From: a virus
Virus record (IMG/VR): IMGVR_UViG_3300037483_001116
Span: 94,019-158,018 of that record
Length of the DNA stretch: 64,000 nt
Direction: 5' to 3' (one strand)
In this document: positions 32,851 through 58,492 of the stretch, piece by piece
Layout: every line of letters begins with the position of its first letter
How positions within the stretch are numbered: the stretch's first letter is position 1
Translations under genes and position numbers: made by a program
The notes under the pieces: model-generated
What the model was told of the DNA's origin: nothing
Databases searched by the model: none
What the model saw: only the letters and a program-made list of their open reading frames with translations

Positions 32851-33696
32851 ATGCCCACATACCAAGAACTTGCATCTGAACCTGAGTGGGGTGCCCAGTT
32901 CATCCCACCGGTGATGAATGCCGGCCTCTTAGGTCCGTTACGCGTGTTCTACGGCCTGGGTCCGAGCGCTGTCGGTTCGGCTGGAGACAATAACCATTTG
33001 CACGGCCGGCATCGGTCCTATTCGTGGGATCGGCTCTCCCGTTACTGCACGGACCGCGGGTATGGAACTACGGATCCTTTGGATCAGGCCGGTAATCACA
33101 ACTGGTACCGGGCTGTTGACGTGGGAATTCGGGGTCCTGACCTGTTTGCGGCGAGCCGTCGTATGGACGATTTAGTTCGTTCTGGGACTTGCCCCGGTCT
33201 AGCGGAGTGGTTTGGGACCTTCAATGGGATCAACGTTGTTGGTTGGTTTGAGGGCCGGCCGTCGACTTCTGATTCGTCCCACCTGTTCCATCTGCACGTG
33301 GGGGTCTGGAACAGTTTCGCCAACGATGCCCAAACGATGCAGATTCTTTACGGTGCCATCACCGGCACCGCGGTTAAGGAGGAAGACGTGCCGAAAATGT
33401 TCCGTGTCACTAACGGTGACCTTACCGGCCTGATTGGTATCAGCAACGGCCCGACGTGGTATCACCTCCCAGCGGGGCCGGCCGTAGATCCCGGTCTGTA
33501 TGTCAGGGCTGCGACGGGCCTGTGGGGTATCTCCGACGCCGACATTGTGGCCGTTAATGAGGAGTGGTTACCGGGGTTCGGGGTGCAAGTTCCCTGGCCT
33601 AGCAGTGGTGGCGGCAGTGGTGGGGGTTCGGGGCCCAGCGCCAGTCAAATCGCCGAGAGTGTAGCCAACGAGCTGTCCGAACGGTTGGAGAACTAA
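32851..33696 (+). CDS. Endolysin (Zn-peptidase-like)
   Basis: GD..H..G.H...AVDV...SH.FHLHV metal-binding pattern; position before a holin-like gene. Confidence 0.65.
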   Translation: MPTYQELASEPEWGAQFIPPVMNAGLLGPLRVFYGLGPSAVGSAGDNNHLHGRHRSYSWDRLSRYCTDRGYGTTDPLDQAGNHNWYRAVDVGIRGPDLFAASRRMDDLVRSGTCPGLAEWFGTFNGINVVGWFEGRPSTSDSSHLFHLHVGVWNSFANDAQTMQILYGAITGTAVKEEDVPKMFRVTNGDLTGLIGISNGPTWYHLPAGPAVDPGLYVRAATGLWGISDADIVAVNEEWLPGFGVQVPWPSSGGGSGGGSGPSASQIAESVANELSERLEN

Positions 33697-35332: not shown

Positions 35333-36172
35333 CTACTTGGGGAGCACCCCTCCCGGGTCAACCCAGATCAATTCCACTCCGGAGGCGCGGAGGACGTTGT
35401 CGCCGTCGAGCACCGCGTACGGCCCGGCGAAGAAGCAGCGCCGGAAGCCCGCCTCGGCGACTAACCGTGCGCAGCCGGGGCACGGGAACGTCGACACGTA
35501 CAGGTCCGCCCCCCGCAGCGGGACTCCCCGGCGGGCCGCCCGGCCGACGAGGAGCGCCTCGGCGTGGATCGCGGTGGACAGGTCCAGGCGGACGCCCCGG
35601 CTGAAGTCGTTGCGGGGATCCCCGTTGAGATAGGGGGAGTACTCGGTCGGCCGGTGCTCGTTGTGGGCCACGTCGAGGACGACCCCGTCCCGCACGGCCA
35701 GCGCGCCGACCTGGCGCCACCAGTCCGAGCTGAGCCCGGCCGCGTCCAGCGCCGTCCGGGTGAAGGTCTGGTCCACTGTGGACGCCGACACCGTACCGTC
35801 GTAGTCGGGTGGGCGTCCGGCCAGGCTCCACGAGCGGTCCCAGCGCAGGAACGTGCGCTCCCACTGGATGGTTGGGCCATCTTCCACAACGGACCGCATG
35901 AGTTCCTCGTCGGGCACCACGGTCGTCGCGCCGGCCAGCGCGCCCGGCAGGTCGGCCGGTTCGATGACCCGTACCCGCGCGAAGCGACCGGCCGCGACCA
36001 GATAACCGGCCGCGACGTGCGGGTCGAGGGCTCGGATCTCTTTGCGGAGCACCGGATGCGTCTCGGCGAACGACGGCCCCAGCAGCAGCACCTCGTCGGC
36101 GTCGGCGTGGCGGTCGAACAGCGCCTCGTACCCGGCGTGCAGGACGGGCAGGTAGAGCAGCAGCTGCTTCAG
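35333..36172 (-). CDS. dCMP deaminase-family protein with N-terminal extension (probable CTG start)
   Basis: RQVGA...HAE...LYVSTFPCPGCA. Frame extends upstream of the track start as LKQLLLYLPVLHAGY, overlapping the upstream TGA. Confidence 0.85.
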   Translation of the reverse strand: MKQLLLYLPVLHAGYEALFDRHADADEVLLLGPSFAETHPVLRKEIRALDPHVAAGYLVAAGRFARVRVIEPADLPGALAGATTVVPDEELMRSVVEDGPTIQWERTFLRWDRSWSLAGRPPDYDGTVSASTVDQTFTRTALDAAGLSSDWWRQVGALAVRDGVVLDVAHNEHRPTEYSPYLNGDPRNDFSRGVRLDLSTAIHAEALLVGRAARRGVPLRGADLYVSTFPCPGCARLVAEAGFRRCFFAGPYAVLDGDNVLRASGVELIWVDPGGVLPK

Positions 36173-36693
36173 TGTTGACCCAGCTGCATGAGCCGTAGGC
36201 GGGCGGTGGTGGAGACAATGCCCATCCGTCCGAGGACTTCAACCCGGCCGCAGTATGTTGCTTCCAGTTCCCTGATTTCTCCGTTGGTGTAAGTGTCTTC
36301 TGTGGCGACAAGAACGTCGGGGCATACGGCCTGGATCAGGGACCAGCGCGGCGCGCCGGCTGGCTTCAATGTGACAAGGCCTACTCCACGTTGGTGGGTG
36401 ACCATTCGTAGGCGTTCCAGCTCGGGCACGACTGGCCGCGTTGGCCCCTTACGTTTCCGAACCTTGTCGTCGCTGTCGATGCCGACGATGAGGAAATCGC
36501 CAAAGCTGCGGGCGGCTTCGAGGTAGCGGGAGTGGCCTTCGTGGAGGATGTCGAAGGTGCCGGCCGTGAGAACGACTTTGAGGTTGAGTACCCGTAGAGC
36601 TGCCACAGTCTCGGCGATGTGTCCGTAGTCGGGGACGAAGCGCAGCTCAAAATGGGAGGCGTCGGCGAAGAGGCCTTTCGATGGGCCAATCAT
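36169..36693 (-). CDS. Cytidylyl/adenylyltransferase (RfaE/HldE domain II-like)
   Basis: GTFDILHEGH, LIVGIDSD..V...KG..RP, STT. Confidence 0.88.
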   Translation of the reverse strand: MIGPSKGLFADASHFELRFVPDYGHIAETVAALRVLNLKVVLTAGTFDILHEGHSRYLEAARSFGDFLIVGIDSDDKVRKRKGPTRPVVPELERLRMVTHQRGVGLVTLKPAGAPRWSLIQAVCPDVLVATEDTYTNGEIRELEATYCGRVEVLGRMGIVSTTARLRLMQLGQH

Positions 36694-36724
36694 TCGCGCC
36701 AGCCCTGGTCGTGCGGGTTGGCGC

Positions 36725-36937
36725 TCATGCGACCGGCTCCTCGCCGACCAGTTCGCCGTAGCCCTGACTGGCCAGCGCGAACTTGATGTAGCCGGGGTTG
36801 CCGAAGACGCGCACCCGGCAGGTGTCGCCGTTGTAGGACCCTTCGACCACCACGGCGGTGCCGAGCTGCTGGACCGTCGTGTCGAGCAGAGTCGGGTTGG
36901 CGGTGCGGACGATCAGGTCGGTCGCTTCGGTGTTCAT
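36725..36937 (-). CDS. Hypothetical protein
   Basis: Coupled ORF. Confidence 0.6.
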   Translation of the reverse strand: MNTEATDLIVRTANPTLLDTTVQQLGTAVVVEGSYNGDTCRVRVFGNPGYIKFALASQGYGELVGEEPVA

Positions 36938-37611
36938 GCGTTGGCCTCAGGGTTGGTACGAAGAGGGGCATGGCCAAGGACGTCAACGGGGTGGTGCCGT
37001 GTTTCTTTGCCGGGCGTGTCCCAAAGCCACGTTTCTGGATTCCAGACCCGGCCGCTGGATGTCTCCAGCTCCAGGCCTGCCTTGACCTCGTCGGCGAAGA
37101 AACGCCAGTGCGGCCCGGTGATACCTTGTTCGCTGGCCAGTTCGGCAAAGCACAATGGGCAAATGATTTCGCCGTACTGCCAGGTTCCGTTGATGGAGCC
37201 GCCGCGCATCACCTGGTTCCACAGCGGACTGGGGGCCGACCAGGAGATGTTGGGGCCGTCACAACGTTGGCAGTGCTGTTCCAGGTCAGCGGCGCCTCGT
37301 TTGTCGACGTAGAACCAGCTCTGACCGCCGTCTGTGCTCATGGCCGCCGGGTCGCGTCGGTTCTGCCACAGTGGTGTGCCGGAGATTTTGGAACGGTTTT
37401 CCCATTCGGCTGGGTCGGAGGTCAACGGCGACAAGGTCCGGTGCTGGAGCAGGATATGCAGCTGCTCGATCGCGACCGTGGCCGAGCCGCCGGAGTGGCC
37501 GTAAGAAGCAAAGGCTTCGACGGCGGCGACGATCGAGGCGGCGTAACCCGGGGCTTCTTCGGTCTGACCGCACAGTTCGAGTTCGCGGCGGGCGTGGTCG
37601 ACGAGGCTCAT
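36934..37611 (-). CDS. Hypothetical phage protein (two-domain; CxxC..CxxC C-terminus)
   Basis: HARRELEL...GHSGGSA...LSPLT...WQN.R, a common phage motif. Confidence 0.7.
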   Translation of the reverse strand: MSLVDHARRELELCGQTEEAPGYAASIVAAVEAFASYGHSGGSATVAIEQLHILLQHRTLSPLTSDPAEWENRSKISGTPLWQNRRDPAAMSTDGGQSWFYVDKRGAADLEQHCQRCDGPNISWSAPSPLWNQVMRGGSINGTWQYGEIICPLCFAELASEQGITGPHWRFFADEVKAGLELETSSGRVWNPETWLWDTPGKETRHHPVDVLGHAPLRTNPEANA

Positions 37612-37853
37612 TTGACGTATCCACTTTCGGTCCAGCGGGCCGGATTTCTGCGTTCACCCATGAGGATGGGCACGATGATGGGTTCGCCGCCGAGGTTGGT
37701 GCCAATGCGCTGGCCTGGCTGTAGGAACAGGTTGCCGGTGGACTGGCCGCCGCAGCCGATGCACTGGTCTTGGGCGTGACGGCCGTGTTCGCATCGGTCG
37801 AGGGCGCTGAGGGTTGGGTTGTACTCGTCGGCGTACCGCGGGGATTCGGTCAT
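37608..37853 (-). CDS. Hypothetical Cys/His protein
   Basis: ATGA overlaps on both sides; DRCEHGRH..D.C..C. Confidence 0.6.
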   Translation of the reverse strand: MTESPRYADEYNPTLSALDRCEHGRHAQDQCIGCGGQSTGNLFLQPGQRIGTNLGGEPIIVPILMGERRNPARWTESGYVK

Positions 37854-38443
37854 GCGATGACCTCTTCCGCGTCGATGATTTCGACTTCTTCTGTGGTGGC
37901 GCCAAGGGCCAGCGGCTGGTCCTCGCCGGTGACTGCATTGTATGCGTCGCGGGTCCAGCGGGCGTCGTCCATGGCGTGGTGAATCTTCCATGGTTCTGCG
38001 GGCAGCTTGACGTTGGGTCGGGTTTCGATGAGCTGCTGTACGTCGTGGGTGAACATGGGTATCCCGGCCGGCAGCTCGGCCATGGATCCGAACAGTTGGC
38101 ACAGGACGACGTGGTCGTAGGCGCCGTAGTAGGCCCACAGTTCCAGGTTAGGTATGGCCTGTAAGAAGGTTCTGACGTCGTCGATGAGGTTGTCAAGGCT
38201 CATGGACACGTATTGGTATTCGTCGTGGGCCTCGTCCCATTCGAGGACGCCGGGGCTTGCTTTGATGGGCAGATAGGGGCCCACGTTCACGGATAACCAG
38301 GGATGCTTGGCTACGTTGGATAGGGATTCGGGGTTGATGCGGTATAACTCAGTGCCGTCTTCGCGGATCAGGCCGATGGAGACCAGCTGAATGGGCAGGT
38401 CACGGCCTCGTTCCACGAATTCACAGTCATAGAATGTCTTCAA
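37850..38443 (-). CDS. DEDDh 3'-5' exoribonuclease (RNase AS/Rv2179c-like)
   Basis: FYDCEF, LVSIG, WAYYGAYDHV.L.QLFG.M..LP, HHAMDDARW. Confidence 0.88.
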   Translation of the reverse strand: MKTFYDCEFVERGRDLPIQLVSIGLIREDGTELYRINPESLSNVAKHPWLSVNVGPYLPIKASPGVLEWDEAHDEYQYVSMSLDNLIDDVRTFLQAIPNLELWAYYGAYDHVVLCQLFGSMAELPAGIPMFTHDVQQLIETRPNVKLPAEPWKIHHAMDDARWTRDAYNAVTGEDQPLALGATTEEVEIIDAEEVIA

Positions 38444-44114: not shown

Positions 44115-45128
44115 TCAGCCGACGGCGATGGGGATGTTGGCCTCGTCCTCATCGTCAATGAGGTCGTCAAAGACTGACCTTGAACCCTCCTCGTCGAGGA
44201 GCATGATCCGGGCCGGCTCAGTGGAAGTGACCGAGGTGACGGGAACCGGCTCGGCGGCCTCGTCTTCGGTGGTGACGACGGGGGGCTGCCCGGCGCCCTT
44301 GGTATTGGTGGTGTCAGCGGCAGTGGCAGCGTCAGCCTCGGCGGCCTTGGTGGCGGCTTCGGCATCGACCTTGGCCTGACGTTCGACCAGCTTGGCATTG
44401 ACGACGGCCAAATGTTCCTTGGTCCAGCCGCCGACGAGCTTGGCGACGGCCTCGGCGCGGGTATTGCCGTGCTGGTCGAGGCCGGCGACGTTGAAACCGT
44501 CGCGGTCGAAGCTGTAGCGGTTGTAGCCGGCCTTGTTGTAGCCCTCCTGGTCGTAGCCGCGCGTGTTGTAGCCTTCGCGGTCGAGGCCGGTCAGGCGGTT
44601 GAAACCTTCGCGGTTGTAGCCTTCCCGGTCGTAGCCTTGGCAGTCGAACCCGGCGGCGTTGAAGAACCGTCCGTCGCCGGTGTAGCGGCCGGCGGCGACG
44701 ATGTGGCCGAGGGCCTCGTTGACGGTGCTGCAGTGGCCGTTCACCGTGGCCCAGGTGACGATCTGGTCGGTGAGCCACGGCAGGACGGTGGCGAGCTGCT
44801 CATCGGTGGGCTTGGTGACCTCATACTTGCCGTCGGGGGCTTCGAGCATGAAGTTGAGGAGCTTCTTGGCTCTGGTGTTCATGGGGCTGCTCCGTGTCTG
44901 GTCCCTGGGGGTTGGGGTTGGTGGTGCGGTGGCTACCGGCCGCTGGCTGTACAGCGAGGCGGCGGCCCCGGATGAGGGCACAGCAGCAGCGTAGGCATCT
45001 CGCAGCTCCTGTACTTGTTGCATGGTTGGCCCTTGGATACGGCCGTAGTCGAGGCGCGGCACGGCATGGTACGGCGGGGCAGGCACGCCATAGTCGCGGT
45101 AGTCGCCGCCAAAAGCGAAGGACGCCAT
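44115..45128 (-). CDS. G(F/Y)(D/N)xxG repeat protein (possible internal start at ~44882)
   Basis: GYDREGYNREGFNR... repeats. Confidence 0.7.
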   Translation of the reverse strand: MASFAFGGDYRDYGVPAPPYHAVPRLDYGRIQGPTMQQVQELRDAYAAAVPSSGAAASLYSQRPVATAPPTPTPRDQTRSSPMNTRAKKLLNFMLEAPDGKYEVTKPTDEQLATVLPWLTDQIVTWATVNGHCSTVNEALGHIVAAGRYTGDGRFFNAAGFDCQGYDREGYNREGFNRLTGLDREGYNTRGYDQEGYNKAGYNRYSFDRDGFNVAGLDQHGNTRAEAVAKLVGGWTKEHLAVVNAKLVERQAKVDAEAATKAAEADAATAADTTNTKGAGQPPVVTTEDEAAEPVPVTSVTSTEPARIMLLDEEGSRSVFDDLIDDEDEANIPIAVG

Positions 45129-56000: not shown

Positions 56001-56307
56001 CCTGCCATCTAGCTGGGGCCGGAAGCAGGGTCAGGACTCCTTTGCCGCAGACTGCGTGCTGCATCGGGATTTTGGCCAGGTCGGCGTGACGGATGATGTG
56101 TTGTTTCTGGCCGGTAGCCAGGTAGAGCCAGGAGTAGTGGCCTTCGATGGTCATGACTTGGGCCTCCGGAGTGGGGTCCCATCTCGCGGCGAGGTGGTGG
56201 GTAGATCTTCCCTCGCCGAGGGCCCTGAGCGCTAGGGGATGGTGTGGGTGTCCATTTTCTGAAAATTCTGGGAGGTCACCCTGAACCCCAGGCATCGATA
56301 TTGACAA
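53004..56307 (-). CDS. Run of small hypothetical genes (e.g. 53004-53216, 53217-53489, 53486-53845, 54014-54298, 54327-54800, 54921-55151, 55126-~55500, 55503-55931, 55915-56307)
   Basis: Coupled ORFs; no recognisable domains. Confidence 0.5.
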
Positions 56308-56322
56308 AATGGTTCTATGTCC

Positions 56323-56825
56323 GCCTCGCCTGCCAGGCCACGCCCTACCCCACCCTACCTAGCCGTGCCTACCTAGCCGTGCCTACCTAGCCGTGCCTAC
56401 CTAGCCGTGCCTGCCTAGCCGTGCCTGCCTAGCCGTGCCTGCCTAGCCGTGCCTGCCTAGCCGTGCCTGCCTAGCCGTGCCTGCCTAGCCGTGCCTACCT
56501 AGCCGTGCCTGCCTAGCCGCGCCTCGCCATGCCTCGCCAGGCCTCGCCATGCCTCGCCAGGCCTCGCCAGGCCTGCCGCACCCTACCTACCCCCGCCCTG
56601 ACACACCTAGCCGGACCTGCCACACCCTGCCACACCATGCCGCGCCGGACGTTGCCTTACCGCACCCAGCCACACCTGCCGCACCAGACCCGACCGCACC
56701 CTGCCCCTGTGGTACCGCGCCCCACCTGCCGTGCCATGCCCCGCCGAGCCTTTCCGCAACACGCCGTGCCTGCCGTGCCATGCCACGCCGTACCGCAACA
56801 CGCCGCGCCGTACCATGCCTGCCGC
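56323..56825 (-). repeat. Pentamer array B: (GGY-NN)n on the minus strand with 4-nt punctuation; includes a 14-bp tandem expansion
   Basis: Plus strand parses as RCC-NN units broken by RCCT; 11 copies of RCCTAGCCGTGCCT at 56357-56510. Confidence 0.9.
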
Positions 56826-56830
56826 GAATC

Positions 56831-57253
56831 TCAGGCTTCAATACGCAGGTCGCCTTCAACGAGGTCCCAAAATTCCTCCAATTCCTCGTAACGGCGGCGC
56901 AAGGACTGCCAATCGCGTTGCATCTCGGCCAGCAGCAGCCGCCGCACCATCGGGTCCTGCATCACCACCGCGGTCGGTTCGTAGGCGTATTTCCTGGTCT
57001 CCGGGTCCTGGATGGCGTGGAAGGCCCGGATAGAAACGGGCTCTCCGCCCTTGGGGCTGGTGTAGCAGATCCGTACCGACCGGATCAGGTTGTGAGCCTG
57101 ATGCCTGCGGTATTTTTCAGCCGCCGCGGTGTCGTTCCACTCGAACCGGAGGTGGAGGGGGTGCTGTTCGTCGCGGGCCACGTCTACAACGAGCGCGGGG
57201 GTCAGCTGCCCGCGCTCGTTGTAGATGGCCTGCAGGTGTTCCCGCAGACTCAT
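56831..57253 (-). CDS. Conserved partner protein of the Cas7/RAMP-like gene (140 aa)
   Basis: LTP..VV..AR....PLH..FEW.D..AAE.YR..QA..LIRSV; located between the RAMP-like gene and array B. Confidence 0.8.
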   Translation of the reverse strand: MSLREHLQAIYNERGQLTPALVVDVARDEQHPLHLRFEWNDTAAAEKYRRHQAHNLIRSVRICYTSPKGGEPVSIRAFHAIQDPETRKYAYEPTAVVMQDPMVRRLLLAEMQRDWQSLRRRYEELEEFWDLVEGDLRIEA

Positions 57254-57262
57254 GGTGTCCTT

Positions 57263-57895
57263 CTACTTGTTGGTGAGGGCCTCGACGTCACGGTCCGGGT
57301 CGATCATGTAGGTGCCCATGTCGCCCTTCTTCTCTGGGCGCCATTCGCCGACGCCGACGCCCATGCCGCCAGCGTCGATGAGGGACAGCACCGACGCCTG
57401 GGTCAGCTGCGAGGTGACATAAGTGACCCGCAGTTCGGTTTTCCACTCCGAAAACTCGGGCCGGTACCGCAGGTCAGTGCCGCCGTTGCCGACCCGGACA
57501 ACATCTTCGCGCATCCTCGGCTCCCCCTCGATAACGGCAAGCTGCTGGCCGTCAACGCCGACTTCGCCGCGGAAGAACAGCACCTGCCGGAGCAGGGTCA
57601 TGGTGACCCCGGCGAAGAACCTGGCCCCACCGATGGTCGCGGCTTTGAACGCAATGACCGGCAGGCCGTAGCCGTCGCCGTTGGTGCGGTAGAACGCCGC
57701 CTCGTACTCAGCCTCCGGGTCCTTGGCCTGTTTGGGGGTTTTGCGGCCCTGCATGGCGTCCAGCATCTGCTTCTTCGCCTTTTCGGAGAAGCGGTGGATG
57801 ATCAACGGCGACGTGCCGACGATGGGAACGATGAGGGTCTCAGCGTCGATGCGGGGAATTTCGATGATGTTGGTGCCCGTTTTTGCTGCTGGCAT
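57263..57895 (-). CDS. Stand-alone Cas7/RAMP-like RNA-binding protein (210 aa; Vipr-like)
   Basis: GGAGAG RBS before ATG 57895. RAMP-like motifs IVGTSPLIIH, LP..AFKAA and RYRPEF..W; C-terminal Gly-rich loop GVGEWRPEKKGDMGTY. Confidence 0.75.
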   Translation of the reverse strand: MPAAKTGTNIIEIPRIDAETLIVPIVGTSPLIIHRFSEKAKKQMLDAMQGRKTPKQAKDPEAEYEAAFYRTNGDGYGLPVIAFKAATIGGARFFAGVTMTLLRQVLFFRGEVGVDGQQLAVIEGEPRMREDVVRVGNGGTDLRYRPEFSEWKTELRVTYVTSQLTQASVLSLIDAGGMGVGVGEWRPEKKGDMGTYMIDPDRDVEALTNK

Positions 57896-57986
57896 TGGTG
57901 AGTTCTCTCCAGATATTCCACTGTGGACAGTTCCCATGCCATACCGCGCCTTCCCCTCCAGCGAGGGGCCGTACTTTGGGGCCTTC

Positions 57987-58492
57987 GCCTGCCGTACCAG
58001 GCCATGCCTAACCTGACCAATCCGGGCCACGCCTTGCCCTGCCTGCCGTACCGGGCCCAGCCATGCCATGCCTCGCCTGCCGGACCTAGCCGAGCCTCGC
58101 CAAACCCTGCCGGGCCAGACCTTGCCTGCCTTACCGAGCCAAACCCGACCACGCCCTTGCACGCCGTGCCAGGCCTTACCTGCCACGCCCAACCGAGCCA
58201 TGCCTTGCGGTACCCCGCCTGCCCAGCCGGACCCTGCCCTGCCGTGCCATACCAAACCCCGCCTCCCCGAACCTGGCCACGCCACACCCCGCGATGCCTG
58301 CCGTACCGGGCCATGCCCTGCCATGCCTTCCCCACCGAACCTGCCTGGCCGGGCCGAGCCTTGCCAAACCCCGACTGGCCCCACCGCGCCTGCCACGCCA
58401 TACCTGGCCCTAACGGACCCCGACTAACCACACCCTGCCTGCCCTGCCCTGCCCTACCCGACCTTGCCCCGCCAAACCATGCCTGCCGTACC
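57987..58492 (-). repeat. Pentamer array A: (GGY-NN)n on the minus strand, ~10 segments delimited by 4-nt units
   Basis: Plus strand: gcct|gccgt accag gccat gccta acctg accaa tccgg gccac gcctt gccct|gcct|gccgt accgg ... Confidence 0.9.

What the first reader, a model, noticed from the sequence alone, without database searches (positions are those of the whole stretch)
56323..58492. Candidate RNA-guided system: stand-alone Cas7/RAMP-like gene plus partner, flanked by two GGY-NN pentamer arrays (VIPR-like)
Seen in sequence: two ~500-nt non-coding tracts (57987-58492 and 56323-56825) keep a strict 5-nt phase, with a near-constant GGY triplet and a variable dinucleotide on the minus (transcribed) strand. 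They bracket exactly two genes. The 210-aa protein has RAMP/Cas7-like motifs (IVGTSPLIIH beta-1, P..AFK helix, C-terminal GxG..R...G.G.Y loop). No cas1/cas2/cas3/cas5 and no normal CRISPR repeat-spacer array is present. Established: Cas7 oligomerises along a guide RNA with a fixed per-subunit step and flips out periodic bases. Inference: each subunit grips one GGY and displays NN, so the NN series encodes a gapped target, and the phage uses this to silence competing phages/MGEs or host genes. From memory this matches the recently reported viral VIPR systems; that recollection needs verifying. This instance and its guides would be new either way.
Basis: partly seen in the sequence, partly recalled or inferred. 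Interest (0 to 1): 0.95.

Follow-up and report, generated by a model that had tools for sequence, protein, structure and literature searches.

The report
Phage VIPR system with staggered guides
An uncultured 158-kb phage of high-GC bacteria carries a VIPR system, the CRISPR-related RNA-guided DNA silencer first described in 2026 preprints, so it is a new example of a known kind; two of its guides spell the 3' halves of tRNA genes, a target class those papers do not mention.

Summary
Two non-coding tracts of about 500 nt (58492-57979 and 56825-56323, minus strand) are built of GGY-NN pentamers. They bracket a 210-aa gene and a 140-aa gene.

- **The protein is a Vipr.** A profile of its family matches the solved SUSP1 Vipr protein (E 1e-12). 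The GGY-gripping residues are kept. The predicted fold is Cas7/Csm3-like (Z 12).
- **The arrays go with the gene.** 67 of 75 homologous loci in bacterial genomes carry GGY arrays on the gene strand and none on the opposite strand. The 140-aa partner is next to the gene in about 65 of them.
- **One correction.** The 5-nt phase is not strict. Each guide-sized run of 7-16 units ends in GGCAG, whose last G starts the next run. This is the "staggered array" named in the VIPR paper, and the runs lack the 3' tails of the studied SUSP1 type.
- **Targets.** Most guides have no match above controls. Two guides shared with related phages spell tRNA 3' halves under the read-2-skip-1 rule: tRNA-Ala/Thr of Actinomycetota (17/18; 18/18 for a relative's variant) and tRNA-Gly(UCC) (18/20). 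The phage's own tRNAs escape.

This scan has already found staggered VIPR arrays on other DNA. Verdict: new member of a known kind, with a new target lead.

The parts
57979..58492 (-). Upstream vrRNA array A. It has about 10 guide-sized runs (35-80 nt, 7-16 GGYNN units). Each run ends in GGCAG and overlaps the next by 1 nt.
   Evidence: Phase parse and junction parse. GGY-5-nt pairs: 74 against 6.7+-2.6 in shuffles.
58341..58390 (-). Guide A3 (NN: GC GG CA GG TT AA TC CC CA). Under the 1-nt-skip rule it spells positions ~41-66 of actinobacterial tRNA-Ala(CGC), tRNA-Thr(CGT) and the tRNA-like end of tmRNA.
   Evidence: 17 matches with <=1 mismatch in 16 of 401 Actinomycetota genomes; the reversed-pattern control gave 0. 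ARAGORN names the genes. The guide is shared with relative L007, whose variant matches tRNA-Thr(CGT) 18/18. The phage's own tRNA-Ala(CGC) scores only 13/18.
58126..58180 (-). Guide A7 (NN: AA CT AC GT AG GT CG TT TC AA). It spells tRNA-Gly(UCC) from the anticodon loop through the T arm.
   Evidence: A seed scan of IMG/VR gave 55 hits, and 26 of them are one tRNA-Gly(TCC) sequence family: 18/20 for this guide, 17/18 for the L009 variant. The best match in a related phage is again tRNA-Gly(tcc), at 15/20.
57896..57978 (-). Leader between array A and vipr. It holds a 6-bp hairpin (57968-57953, CCCCTC / GAGGGG), a conserved block, and GGAGAG before the ATG.
   Evidence: RNAalifold on 4 relatives: four of the six hairpin pairs are kept through changes on both sides in at least one sequence.
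57263..57895 (-). vipr: the 210-aa Vipr (RAMP) protein
   Evidence: - phmmer against PDB 36pp 'SUSP1 Vipr protein': E 3.6e-5.
- Family profile: E 9.7e-13.
- hhalign: probability 97.8%.
- AlphaFold2 model: pLDDT 95.
- Foldseek top hits are Csm3/Cas7, E 3e-6.
- VIA Z 12.0 to Cmr4 and 11.8 to Csm3.
- PHROG 4652.
56831..57253 (-). vap-like accessory gene, 140 aa. Its start lies 9 nt after the vipr stop.
   Evidence: - A homologue lies beside vipr in about 65 of 75 genome loci and in phage loci.
- PHROG 15946, no Pfam family.
- Model pLDDT 88.7: residues 1-99 are weakly winged-helix-like (Z 5-6) and a long helix spans 100-139.
56323..56825 (-). Downstream vrRNA array B. It has 5 clean guide-sized runs (40-65 nt), 2 runs with an internal phase slip, and a 14-nt tandem repeat (56354-56524) of mini-units GGCAC GGCTA GGYAG.
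   Evidence: GGY-5-nt pairs: 71 against 6.5+-2.5 in shuffles.

Best explanation
This is a VIPR (Viral Interference Programmable Repeat) locus of the 'staggered array' kind, carried by an uncultured 158-kb phage of high-GC (probably actinobacterial) hosts.

**Shown here**
- The 210-aa protein is a homologue of the characterised SUSP1 Vipr.
- It has a Cas7-type RAMP fold and keeps the residues that grip GGY.
- It travels with a conserved 140-aa partner and with GGY-NN arrays on its own strand.

**Inferred from the published SUSP1 work**
- Both arrays are transcribed with the genes and cut into guides of about 40-55 nt at the GGCAG junctions.
- Vipr subunits polymerise one per pentamer, sequester GGY and display NN.
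- The filament binds double-stranded DNA that reads NN-x-NN-x..., forming a gapped R-loop that blocks transcription.
- The partner, perhaps a winged-helix DNA binder, assists.

**Inferred from the matches found here**
- At least two guides, both kept in related phages, are aimed at the 3' halves of tRNA genes (tRNA-Ala/Thr of the host phylum; tRNA-Gly(UCC)).
- The phage's own 44 tRNA genes differ enough to escape.
- Targets of the other guides are unknown.
For: **Homology**
- PDB 36pp SUSP1 Vipr: E 3.6e-5 with the single sequence, 9.7e-13 with the profile, hhalign probability 97.8%.
- SUSP1 residues H17, R138, D177, W178 and R179, which bind G1, G2 and Y3 (paper 720927), align to H34, R145, E184, W185 and R186. 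These are H in 57 of 66 aligned relatives, R in 66, E or D in 65, W in 57 and R in 66.

**Fold**
- Model pLDDT 95. All top Foldseek and VIA rows are CRISPR RAMPs.

**Arrays**
- Periodicity is about 26 sd above shuffles.
- Same-strand arrays occur in 67 of 75 homologue loci, opposite-strand arrays in 0 of 75, and in all 5 phage loci checked.
- The GGCAG|GY junction ends 16 of 19 runs here, 39 of 53, 14 of 22 and 21 of 35 in close relatives, and 0 of 4 in SUSP1.
- This fits the paper's fig. [quoted passage not shown]
- Close relatives (Vipr 90-94% identical) keep the layout but carry mostly different NN.

**Other**
- No self-target stands above shuffled controls, as the paper reports for its systems.
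- No cas1 or cas2.
- tRNA matches.
Against: - There are no RNA data, so transcription, the processing sites and binding by the protein are all inferred.
- 12 of 14 clean guides have no match better than shuffled or wrong-skip controls. This holds in the phage's own genome, in 527 kb of VIPR loci, and in exact IMG/VR and metagenome scans.
- The window's own A3 guide has no exact match among 401 sampled Actinomycetota genomes; every hit has one mismatch.
- A7 gave only 2 matches at <=2 mismatches in 121 Actinomycetota genomes, about as many as chance predicts; their gene context was not examined. Its tRNA-Gly matches come from low-GC phage contigs.
- The partner shows no detectable similarity to SUSP1 vap1, and its winged-helix likeness is below the noise level of the aligner.
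- The 14-nt mini-units cannot be guides.
Confidence: 0.88

Rival explanations
1. The tRNA-like guides are not aimed at tRNA genes as such. They are aimed at attachment sites of integrating rivals (prophages, satellites, ICEs), which commonly carry a copy of a tRNA 3' half. Or their tRNA likeness is a trace of how guides are made, copied from abundant RNAs, and has no targeting role.
For: - The matched span (variable loop, T arm, start of the acceptor 3' strand) is the part of tRNA genes classically used as attB/attP. This rests on my own knowledge.
- tmRNA, another classic integration site, is also hit.
- Both guides have the same sense as the tRNA, as expected if copied from RNA.
- An earlier scan note, unchecked by me, reports a guide spelling an initiator tRNA in another VIPR type.
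Against: - No integrating element with such a site was identified here.
- No guide-acquisition machinery is known for VIPR or seen in this locus.
- Sense identity fits DNA targeting of either strand equally well (paper 720920).
Confidence: 0.2
2. The arrays, or at least the 14-nt mini-unit block and the 10/20-nt repeat block of array B, are not guides. They are protein sponges or decoys that titrate Vipr, either this phage's own or a rival's, or they are slippage debris.
For: - There are 11 mini-units with only two variable dinucleotides each.
- TRF gives 97% identity between copies, which points to recent expansion.
- The published work shows standalone vrRNAs used to redirect a rival's Vipr.
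Against: The remaining runs have guide-like lengths and unique NN content. The same layout with different NN occurs in relatives. The mini-unit block is a minority of the arrays.
Confidence: 0.1
3. A decayed or minimal CRISPR-Cas remnant: an orphan Cas7 with a degenerate array that works on RNA like type III systems.
For: The closest solved folds are type III Csm3/Cmr4.
Against: - There are no repeat-spacer units and no cas1 or cas2.
- Direct sequence homology is to SUSP1 Vipr, not to any Cas7.
- The family is large (3,551 cluster representatives) and has a constant two-gene layout.
- Guides with the tRNA's own sense cannot pair with tRNA transcripts.
Confidence: 0.02

Closest known systems
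VIPR systems with 'staggered' vrRNA arrays (bioRxiv 10.64898/2026.04.26.720920, fig. S18 legend; which of types I-VII they belong to is not stated in the text held)
   Same: - A Vipr RAMP protein with one accessory gene.
- GGY/NN pentamer arrays on the gene strand.
- Consecutive guides overlap by one nucleotide, so the end of one marks the start of the next.
- Phage-borne.
- No self-targeting.
   Different: - Only a figure legend is available to compare with; the paper's locus tables are not held.
- This locus has two long arrays, one on each side of the genes.
- A covarying hairpin caps the upstream array.
- Array B contains a 14-nt mini-unit expansion.
- Some guides spell tRNA genes, a target class that none of the three papers mentions: 'tRNA' occurs 0 times in two of them.
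Type II VIPR of Escherichia phage SUSP1 (Vipr, vap1, four vrRNAs; PDB 36pp)
   Same: - Gene order is array - vipr - accessory gene - array, on one strand.
- The Vipr proteins are homologous and share the GGY-binding residues.
- The accessory proteins are of similar size (146 and 140 aa).
   Different: - SUSP1 vrRNAs are separate units, each with a conserved 3' tail or pseudoknot (sequence). Here there are no tails, and runs are joined by GGCAG overlaps (0 of 4 against 16 of 19).
- The accessory proteins show no detectable similarity.
- Known SUSP1 targets are a satellite's genes, not tRNA genes.
Class 1 CRISPR-Cas backbone proteins (Csm3, Cmr4, Cas7)
   Same: An RRM/RAMP fold with a G-loop and a thumb. 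The protein polymerises along a guide with a fixed step and flipped bases (fold; mechanism: paper 720927).
   Different: - The step is 5 nt with 3 bases sequestered, not 6 nt with 1.
- There are no CRISPR repeats, no adaptation genes and no other Cas subunits.
- Sequence identity to these proteins is 6-15%.

Membership tests
VIPR system | A Vipr protein homologous to the characterised Vipr family | tested here: met
   phmmer E 3.6e-5 and profile E 9.7e-13 against PDB 36pp 'SUSP1 Vipr protein'. hhalign probability 97.8% against the SUSP1 gene product.
VIPR system | A single-RRM RAMP fold with a glycine-rich loop and a thumb | tested here: met
   AlphaFold2 pLDDT 95. Foldseek top hits are Csm3 and Cas7, E 3e-6 to 1e-4. 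VIA Z 12.0 (rmsd 3.6, 155 aligned) to Cmr4 6s6b_I and Z 11.8 to Csm3 9g9a_D. The G-loop GVGVGEWRP sits at residues 179-187.
VIPR system | The residues that recognise GGY (SUSP1 H17, R138, D177, W178, R179) | tested here: met
   They align to H34, R145, E184, W185 and R186. Among 66 aligned relatives these are H in 57, R in 66, E or D in 65, W in 57 and R in 66.
VIPR system | Arrays of alternating GGY / NN pentamers next to vipr, on its strand | tested here: met
   Two arrays here. 67 of 75 homologue loci have same-strand arrays and 0 of 75 have opposite-strand arrays.
VIPR system | A vipr-accessory (vap) gene in a minimal two-gene locus | tested here: met
   A conserved 140-aa partner lies beside vipr in about 65 of 75 loci. 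Which of vap1-6 it is cannot be told. It has no similarity to SUSP1 vap1, and its winged-helix likeness is weak.
VIPR system | No CRISPR array and no cas adaptation genes | tested here: met
   No Cas1 or Cas2 in the 158-kb genome, with positive controls ringing. No repeat-spacer array.
VIPR system | vrRNAs are expressed and bound by Vipr | not testable with these tools
   No RNA data exist for this uncultured phage.
VIPR system | Natural targets follow the 1-nt-skip rule | tested here: inconclusive
   Two of 14 guides match tRNA genes at 90-94% under skip 1. The other 12 have no match above controls.
Type II (SUSP1-like) VIPR | Each vrRNA carries a conserved structured 3' tail (pseudoknot) | tested here: not met
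   Runs abut through GGCAG overlaps with no tails. No Rfam family matches the locus. Only one hairpin exists, after the last run of array A.
Staggered-array VIPR | Consecutive vrRNAs overlap by 1 nt, the end of one marking the start of the next | tested here: met
   16 of 19 runs end in GGCAG followed by G[C/T], a -1 phase step. Processing at these points is inferred.
CRISPR-Cas class 1 | A repeat-spacer array together with several cas genes | tested here: not met

The most novel reading that the evidence does not exclude
In this staggered-array VIPR lineage, a conserved subset of guides is directed at tRNA genes: host-type tRNA-Ala/Thr and tRNA-Gly(UCC). A phage that brings 44 tRNA genes of its own would then use RNA-guided DNA binding to shut down, or to occupy, tRNA loci. 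These could be host tRNA genes or the tRNA-derived attachment sites of rival integrating elements. Its own tRNA copies have diverged just enough to escape. tRNA genes would be near escape-proof targets, a non-coding counterpart of the codon-matched targeting published for SUSP1.
Probability: 0.3. Interest if true: 0.7.

Novelty: new member of a known kind. Interest (0 to 1): 0.42.

Why it matters
VIPR is a months-old discovery, studied so far in one E. coli phage and one Pseudomonas prophage of the tailed-vrRNA type.

- **A test locus for the staggered kind.** This locus is a clean, complete example of the staggered, tail-less kind in a large actinobacterial-type phage. Close relatives allow guide turnover to be followed. 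It suits tests of how tail-less guides are cut and measured.
- **A wider view of targets.** If the tRNA-gene reading holds, VIPR targets would extend beyond rival elements' protein genes to conserved non-coding host or att sequences. That would also link the large tRNA sets of such phages to their interference system.
- **Annotation.** The family-wide counts (67 of 75 loci with arrays; the partner in about 65 of 75) give independent support for the published locus definition. Isolated Gordonia and Mycobacterium phages (Pipp, ODay, Saal and others) carry this gene pair and GGY runs, and their records name both genes only 'hypothetical protein'. In Pipp the GGY runs lie under a CDS annotated as hypothetical protein.

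Tried and rejected
- **Self-targeting.** Each of 14 guides was searched against the phage's 158 kb under skips 0-3. Skip 3 only finds the array itself. Skip 1 is no better than shuffled guides.
- **Targeting of other VIPR loci.** A search of 527 kb from about 100 fetched loci, mostly VIPR loci, found nothing above controls.
- **Relatives' guides against this genome.** Of 272 guides, the best scores 18/20, inside the giant 19.9-kb ORF. Its skip bases are not at wobble positions, and the wrong-skip controls do as well.
- **Exact scans.** Full-length scans for guides A8 and A10 in IMG/VR, and for A7 in metagenomes, gave 0 hits.
- **Seeds for A8 and A5.** These guides have a T-loop-like signature, but their seeds gave 9 and 8 hits. 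Only one is tRNA-like and extensions look random, so their T-loop signature is probably chance.
- **A7 in Actinomycetota.** At <=2 mismatches, 121 genomes gave 2 hits, about as many as chance predicts; I did not check what lies at them.
- **A 19/20 match of A7** occurs in two low-GC IMG/VR contigs outside any tRNA. It is not significant after the seed requirement.
- **Window guides against a close relative's tRNAs.** Against the 51 tRNAs of G406, none reaches 80%.
- **The partner protein.** No Pfam family, no PDB sequence match, no Foldseek match below E 0.1, and VIA Z at most 6.
- **Known RNA families and signals.** Rfam, including hammerhead ribozymes, finds nothing in the locus. The sigma-70 promoter and terminator scans are uninformative.
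- **Megablast** of the locus and of 25 kb of the window against isolated phages found no close relative.
- **The family HMM** finds no second Vipr in this genome.
Full report
**What is there.** Read on the minus strand, the locus runs as follows:
- a 100-aa ORF ending at 58492
- array A (58492-57979)
- an 83-nt leader
- a 210-aa gene (57895-57263)
- a 140-aa gene starting 9 nt later (57253-56831)
- array B (56825-56323)
- about 170 nt of conserved non-coding sequence before the next gene

The window is the last 64 kb of an IMG/VR virus record of 158,018 bp, which CheckV rates 97% complete. Its G+C content is about 62%. It has no close relative among isolated phages.

**The arrays.** Pairs of GGY triplets spaced 5 nt apart number 74 in A and 71 in B. 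Dinucleotide-preserving shuffles give 6.7+-2.6 and 6.5+-2.5, and never more than 15. Elsewhere in the 158-kb genome only two much weaker spots exist, both outside the window.

The phase is not strict. A phase-tracking parse and a junction parse show runs of 7-16 pentamers. Each run ends in GGCAG (rarely GGTAG), and the last G of that unit is also the first G of the next run. The register therefore steps back one base at every run end.

Array A holds about ten such runs of 35-80 nt. Array B holds five clean runs, two with an internal slip, and a block of twelve 14-nt repeats: GGCAC GGCTA GGYAG, overlapped. TRF reports that block at 97% identity. It looks like a recent slippage expansion of a unit too short to guide anything.

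**The protein.**
- No Pfam family fits it; PHROG 4652, of unknown function, does.
- A sequence search of the PDB finds one significant chain, 36pp 'SUSP1 Vipr protein', at E 3.6e-5.
- A 66-sequence family profile raises this to 9.7e-13 over profile positions 69-199.
- hhalign against the gene product read from the SUSP1 genome gives probability 97.8%.
- The cryo-EM paper names H17, R138, D177, W178 and R179 as the residues that hold G1, G2 and Y3 (10.64898/2026.04.26.720927). They align to H34, R145, E184, W185 and R186. Across the 66 aligned relatives these are H in 57, R in 66, E or D in 65, W in 57 and R in 66.
- The AlphaFold2 model is confident (pLDDT 95, pTM 0.88).
- Every leading structural match is a CRISPR RAMP. 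Foldseek gives E 3e-6 to Csm3 of Lactococcus. VIA gives Z 12.0 (rmsd 3.6 A, 155 residues) to Cmr4 6s6b_I and Z 11.8 to Csm3 9g9a_D.
- The family is large: 3,551 cluster representatives at E <= 0.001.

**Co-occurrence.** Homologues in Gordonia phages Pipp and ODay, Mycobacterium phage Saal, a cyanophage and Pseudomonas phage LESphi2 all have GGYNN runs beside the gene. In 75 loci from bacterial and archaeal genomes, 67 carry GGY arrays on the gene strand and none on the other strand. Several of the 8 exceptions are short contigs. The closest of these loci lie in Actinomycetota.

The 140-aa protein has a homologue next to vipr in about 65 of the 75 loci and in the phage loci. It is therefore this clade's accessory (vap) gene. 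Its model (pLDDT 88.7) has an N-terminal alpha/beta domain that resembles winged-helix DNA binders only weakly: Z 5-6, below the aligner's noise level. A 40-residue helix follows. It shows no similarity to SUSP1 vap1.

**Comparison with the published systems.** The preprints define VIPR as Vipr plus a vap gene plus vrRNAs of alternating GGY/NN. The vrRNAs recognise double-stranded DNA by pairing NN and skipping one target base, which represses transcription.

SUSP1 has the same gene order as this locus. Its vrRNAs, however, are separate units with a structured 3' tail. Here there are no tails, and no Rfam family, hammerhead included, matches.

The GGCAG overlap junction ends 16 of 19 runs here. 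In three close relatives it ends 39 of 53, 14 of 22 and 21 of 35 runs. It also occurs in many distant loci, and in 0 of 4 runs in SUSP1. [quoted passage not shown] S18 legend). I could not assign a VIPR type because the paper's tables are not held.

**Relatives.** Three uncultured phages have Vipr 90-94% identical to this one: L007, L009, and G406 (via L173). They keep the layout array - vipr - partner - array, the junction, and a hairpin just after the upstream array. Four of the hairpin's six pairs are kept through compensatory changes. Their NN content is largely different, and one downstream array is 1.75 kb long with about 40 runs. Three guides are shared in part with relatives: A3 with L007, and A5 and A7 with L009.

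**Targets.** I used the published scoring: NN joined by one wildcard, both strands, with shuffled-guide and wrong-skip controls. None of the 14 clean guides matches the phage's own genome or 527 kb of fetched loci, mostly VIPR loci, better than controls. Relatives' guides do not match this genome significantly either. Exact scans for A8, A10 and A7 found nothing.

*Guide A3.* A 16-base seed of the conserved guide A3 gave 13 IMG/VR hits. Four look like tRNA T arms, though ARAGORN called no tRNA in the one of these I checked (L089); five are copies of a single phage sequence.
- Searched with at most 1 mismatch in 401 Actinomycetota genomes, the full 18-base pattern hit 17 times in 16 genomes. 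The reversed-pattern control hit 0 times.
- ARAGORN shows that 10 of the 11 fetched hits are tRNA genes (8 Ala, 2 Thr) and one is a tmRNA. All are in the tRNA's sense and cover about positions 41-66.
- L007's variant of the guide differs in the last unit and matches a tRNA-Thr(CGT) 18/18.
- The phage's own tRNA-Ala(CGC) matches only 13/18.

*Guide A7.* Its seed gave 55 IMG/VR hits. Of these, 26 are one tRNA-Gly(TCC) family: 18/20 for this guide, and 17/18 for L009's variant against the tRNA variant with the matching T loop.

*Strength of the lead.* Two of the five seeds tried landed on tRNA genes, and both belong to guides conserved between phages. I take this as a real lead. It is limited in four ways:
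- There is no exact match for the window's own A3.
- The A7 matches come from low-GC phages.
- Seeds for A8 and A5 did not confirm a tRNA link.
- The T-loop signature count over all guides (22 of 303 against 8.3+-3.0 in shuffles) includes duplicate loci.

Two of the VIPR papers do not contain the word tRNA.

**Mechanism and verdict.** The homology, the fold, the conserved GGY-binding residues, the arrays, the partner and the absence of cas genes are shown. Transcription, cutting at the junctions, filament assembly, gapped DNA binding and silencing are inferred from SUSP1. The tRNA-gene targeting is a lead with moderate statistical support and unknown biology. It could mean host tRNA shut-off with replacement by the phage's 44 tRNAs, occlusion of tRNA-derived att sites of rivals, or a trace of how guides arise.

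This is a new member of a known kind. The scan has met staggered VIPR arrays repeatedly on other DNA, so the interest lies in the target lead and in the clean comparative set.

Noticed in passing
own genome G000:C1 ~35,800-38,000 (58 kb before the window): An earlier scan note reports a second, very divergent VIPR-like system here: a RAMP gene after a 1.3-kb pentamer array. My GGY scan sees only a weak periodic patch at 35762-35907 (+), and the family HMM of this Vipr does not detect a second copy at E < 10. If it is real, the phage carries two unrelated VIPR systems.
   Followed up: partly
own genome G000:C1 ~75,050-75,110 (+), outside the window: A solitary GGYNN run of about 9 units ends in GGCAG|GC and is followed by a strong GC-rich hairpin. 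It sits in a stretch spanned only by short stop-to-stop frames (104-112 aa), next to the tRNA region. It is a possible solo vrRNA, like those described in 10.64898/2026.10.15.759431.
   Followed up: partly
window 45053-45082 (+): Six consecutive GGYNN units end in GGCAG|GC, on the strand opposite to the VIPR locus and inside overlapping open frames of a region with 15-nt coding repeats. About 0.002 such runs are expected by chance in the window. It may be a solo guide embedded in a gene.
   Followed up: partly
own genome, ~39-71 kb: ARAGORN finds 44 tRNA genes plus a tmRNA-like call. They include tRNA-Ala(CGC/TGC/GGC) and tRNA-Gly(TCC), none of which matches a window guide at 80% or more.
   Followed up: yes
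window 56200-56322 (-), and L007:5868-5950, L009:4782-4860: The non-coding stretch after array B holds blocks conserved among relatives (CATAGAAC, ATATCGATG, ACCTCCCAGAA). Their role is unknown; they could be a promoter or regulatory site of the next gene, or an end signal of the array transcript.
   Followed up: partly
L001 (Gordonia phage Pipp MN234179, record 33093-33362) and L007:4024-4992: Public annotation and gene callers place 'hypothetical protein' genes on top of vrRNA arrays. In Gordonia and Mycobacterium phages the vipr and vap genes themselves are annotated only as hypothetical proteins.
   Followed up: partly
L123 and L153 (IMG/VR contigs 3300021962_000073, 3300021961_000070): Guide A7 matches a non-tRNA site in two low-GC phage contigs at 19/20. 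This is not significant after the seed requirement, and it was not examined further.
   Followed up: no
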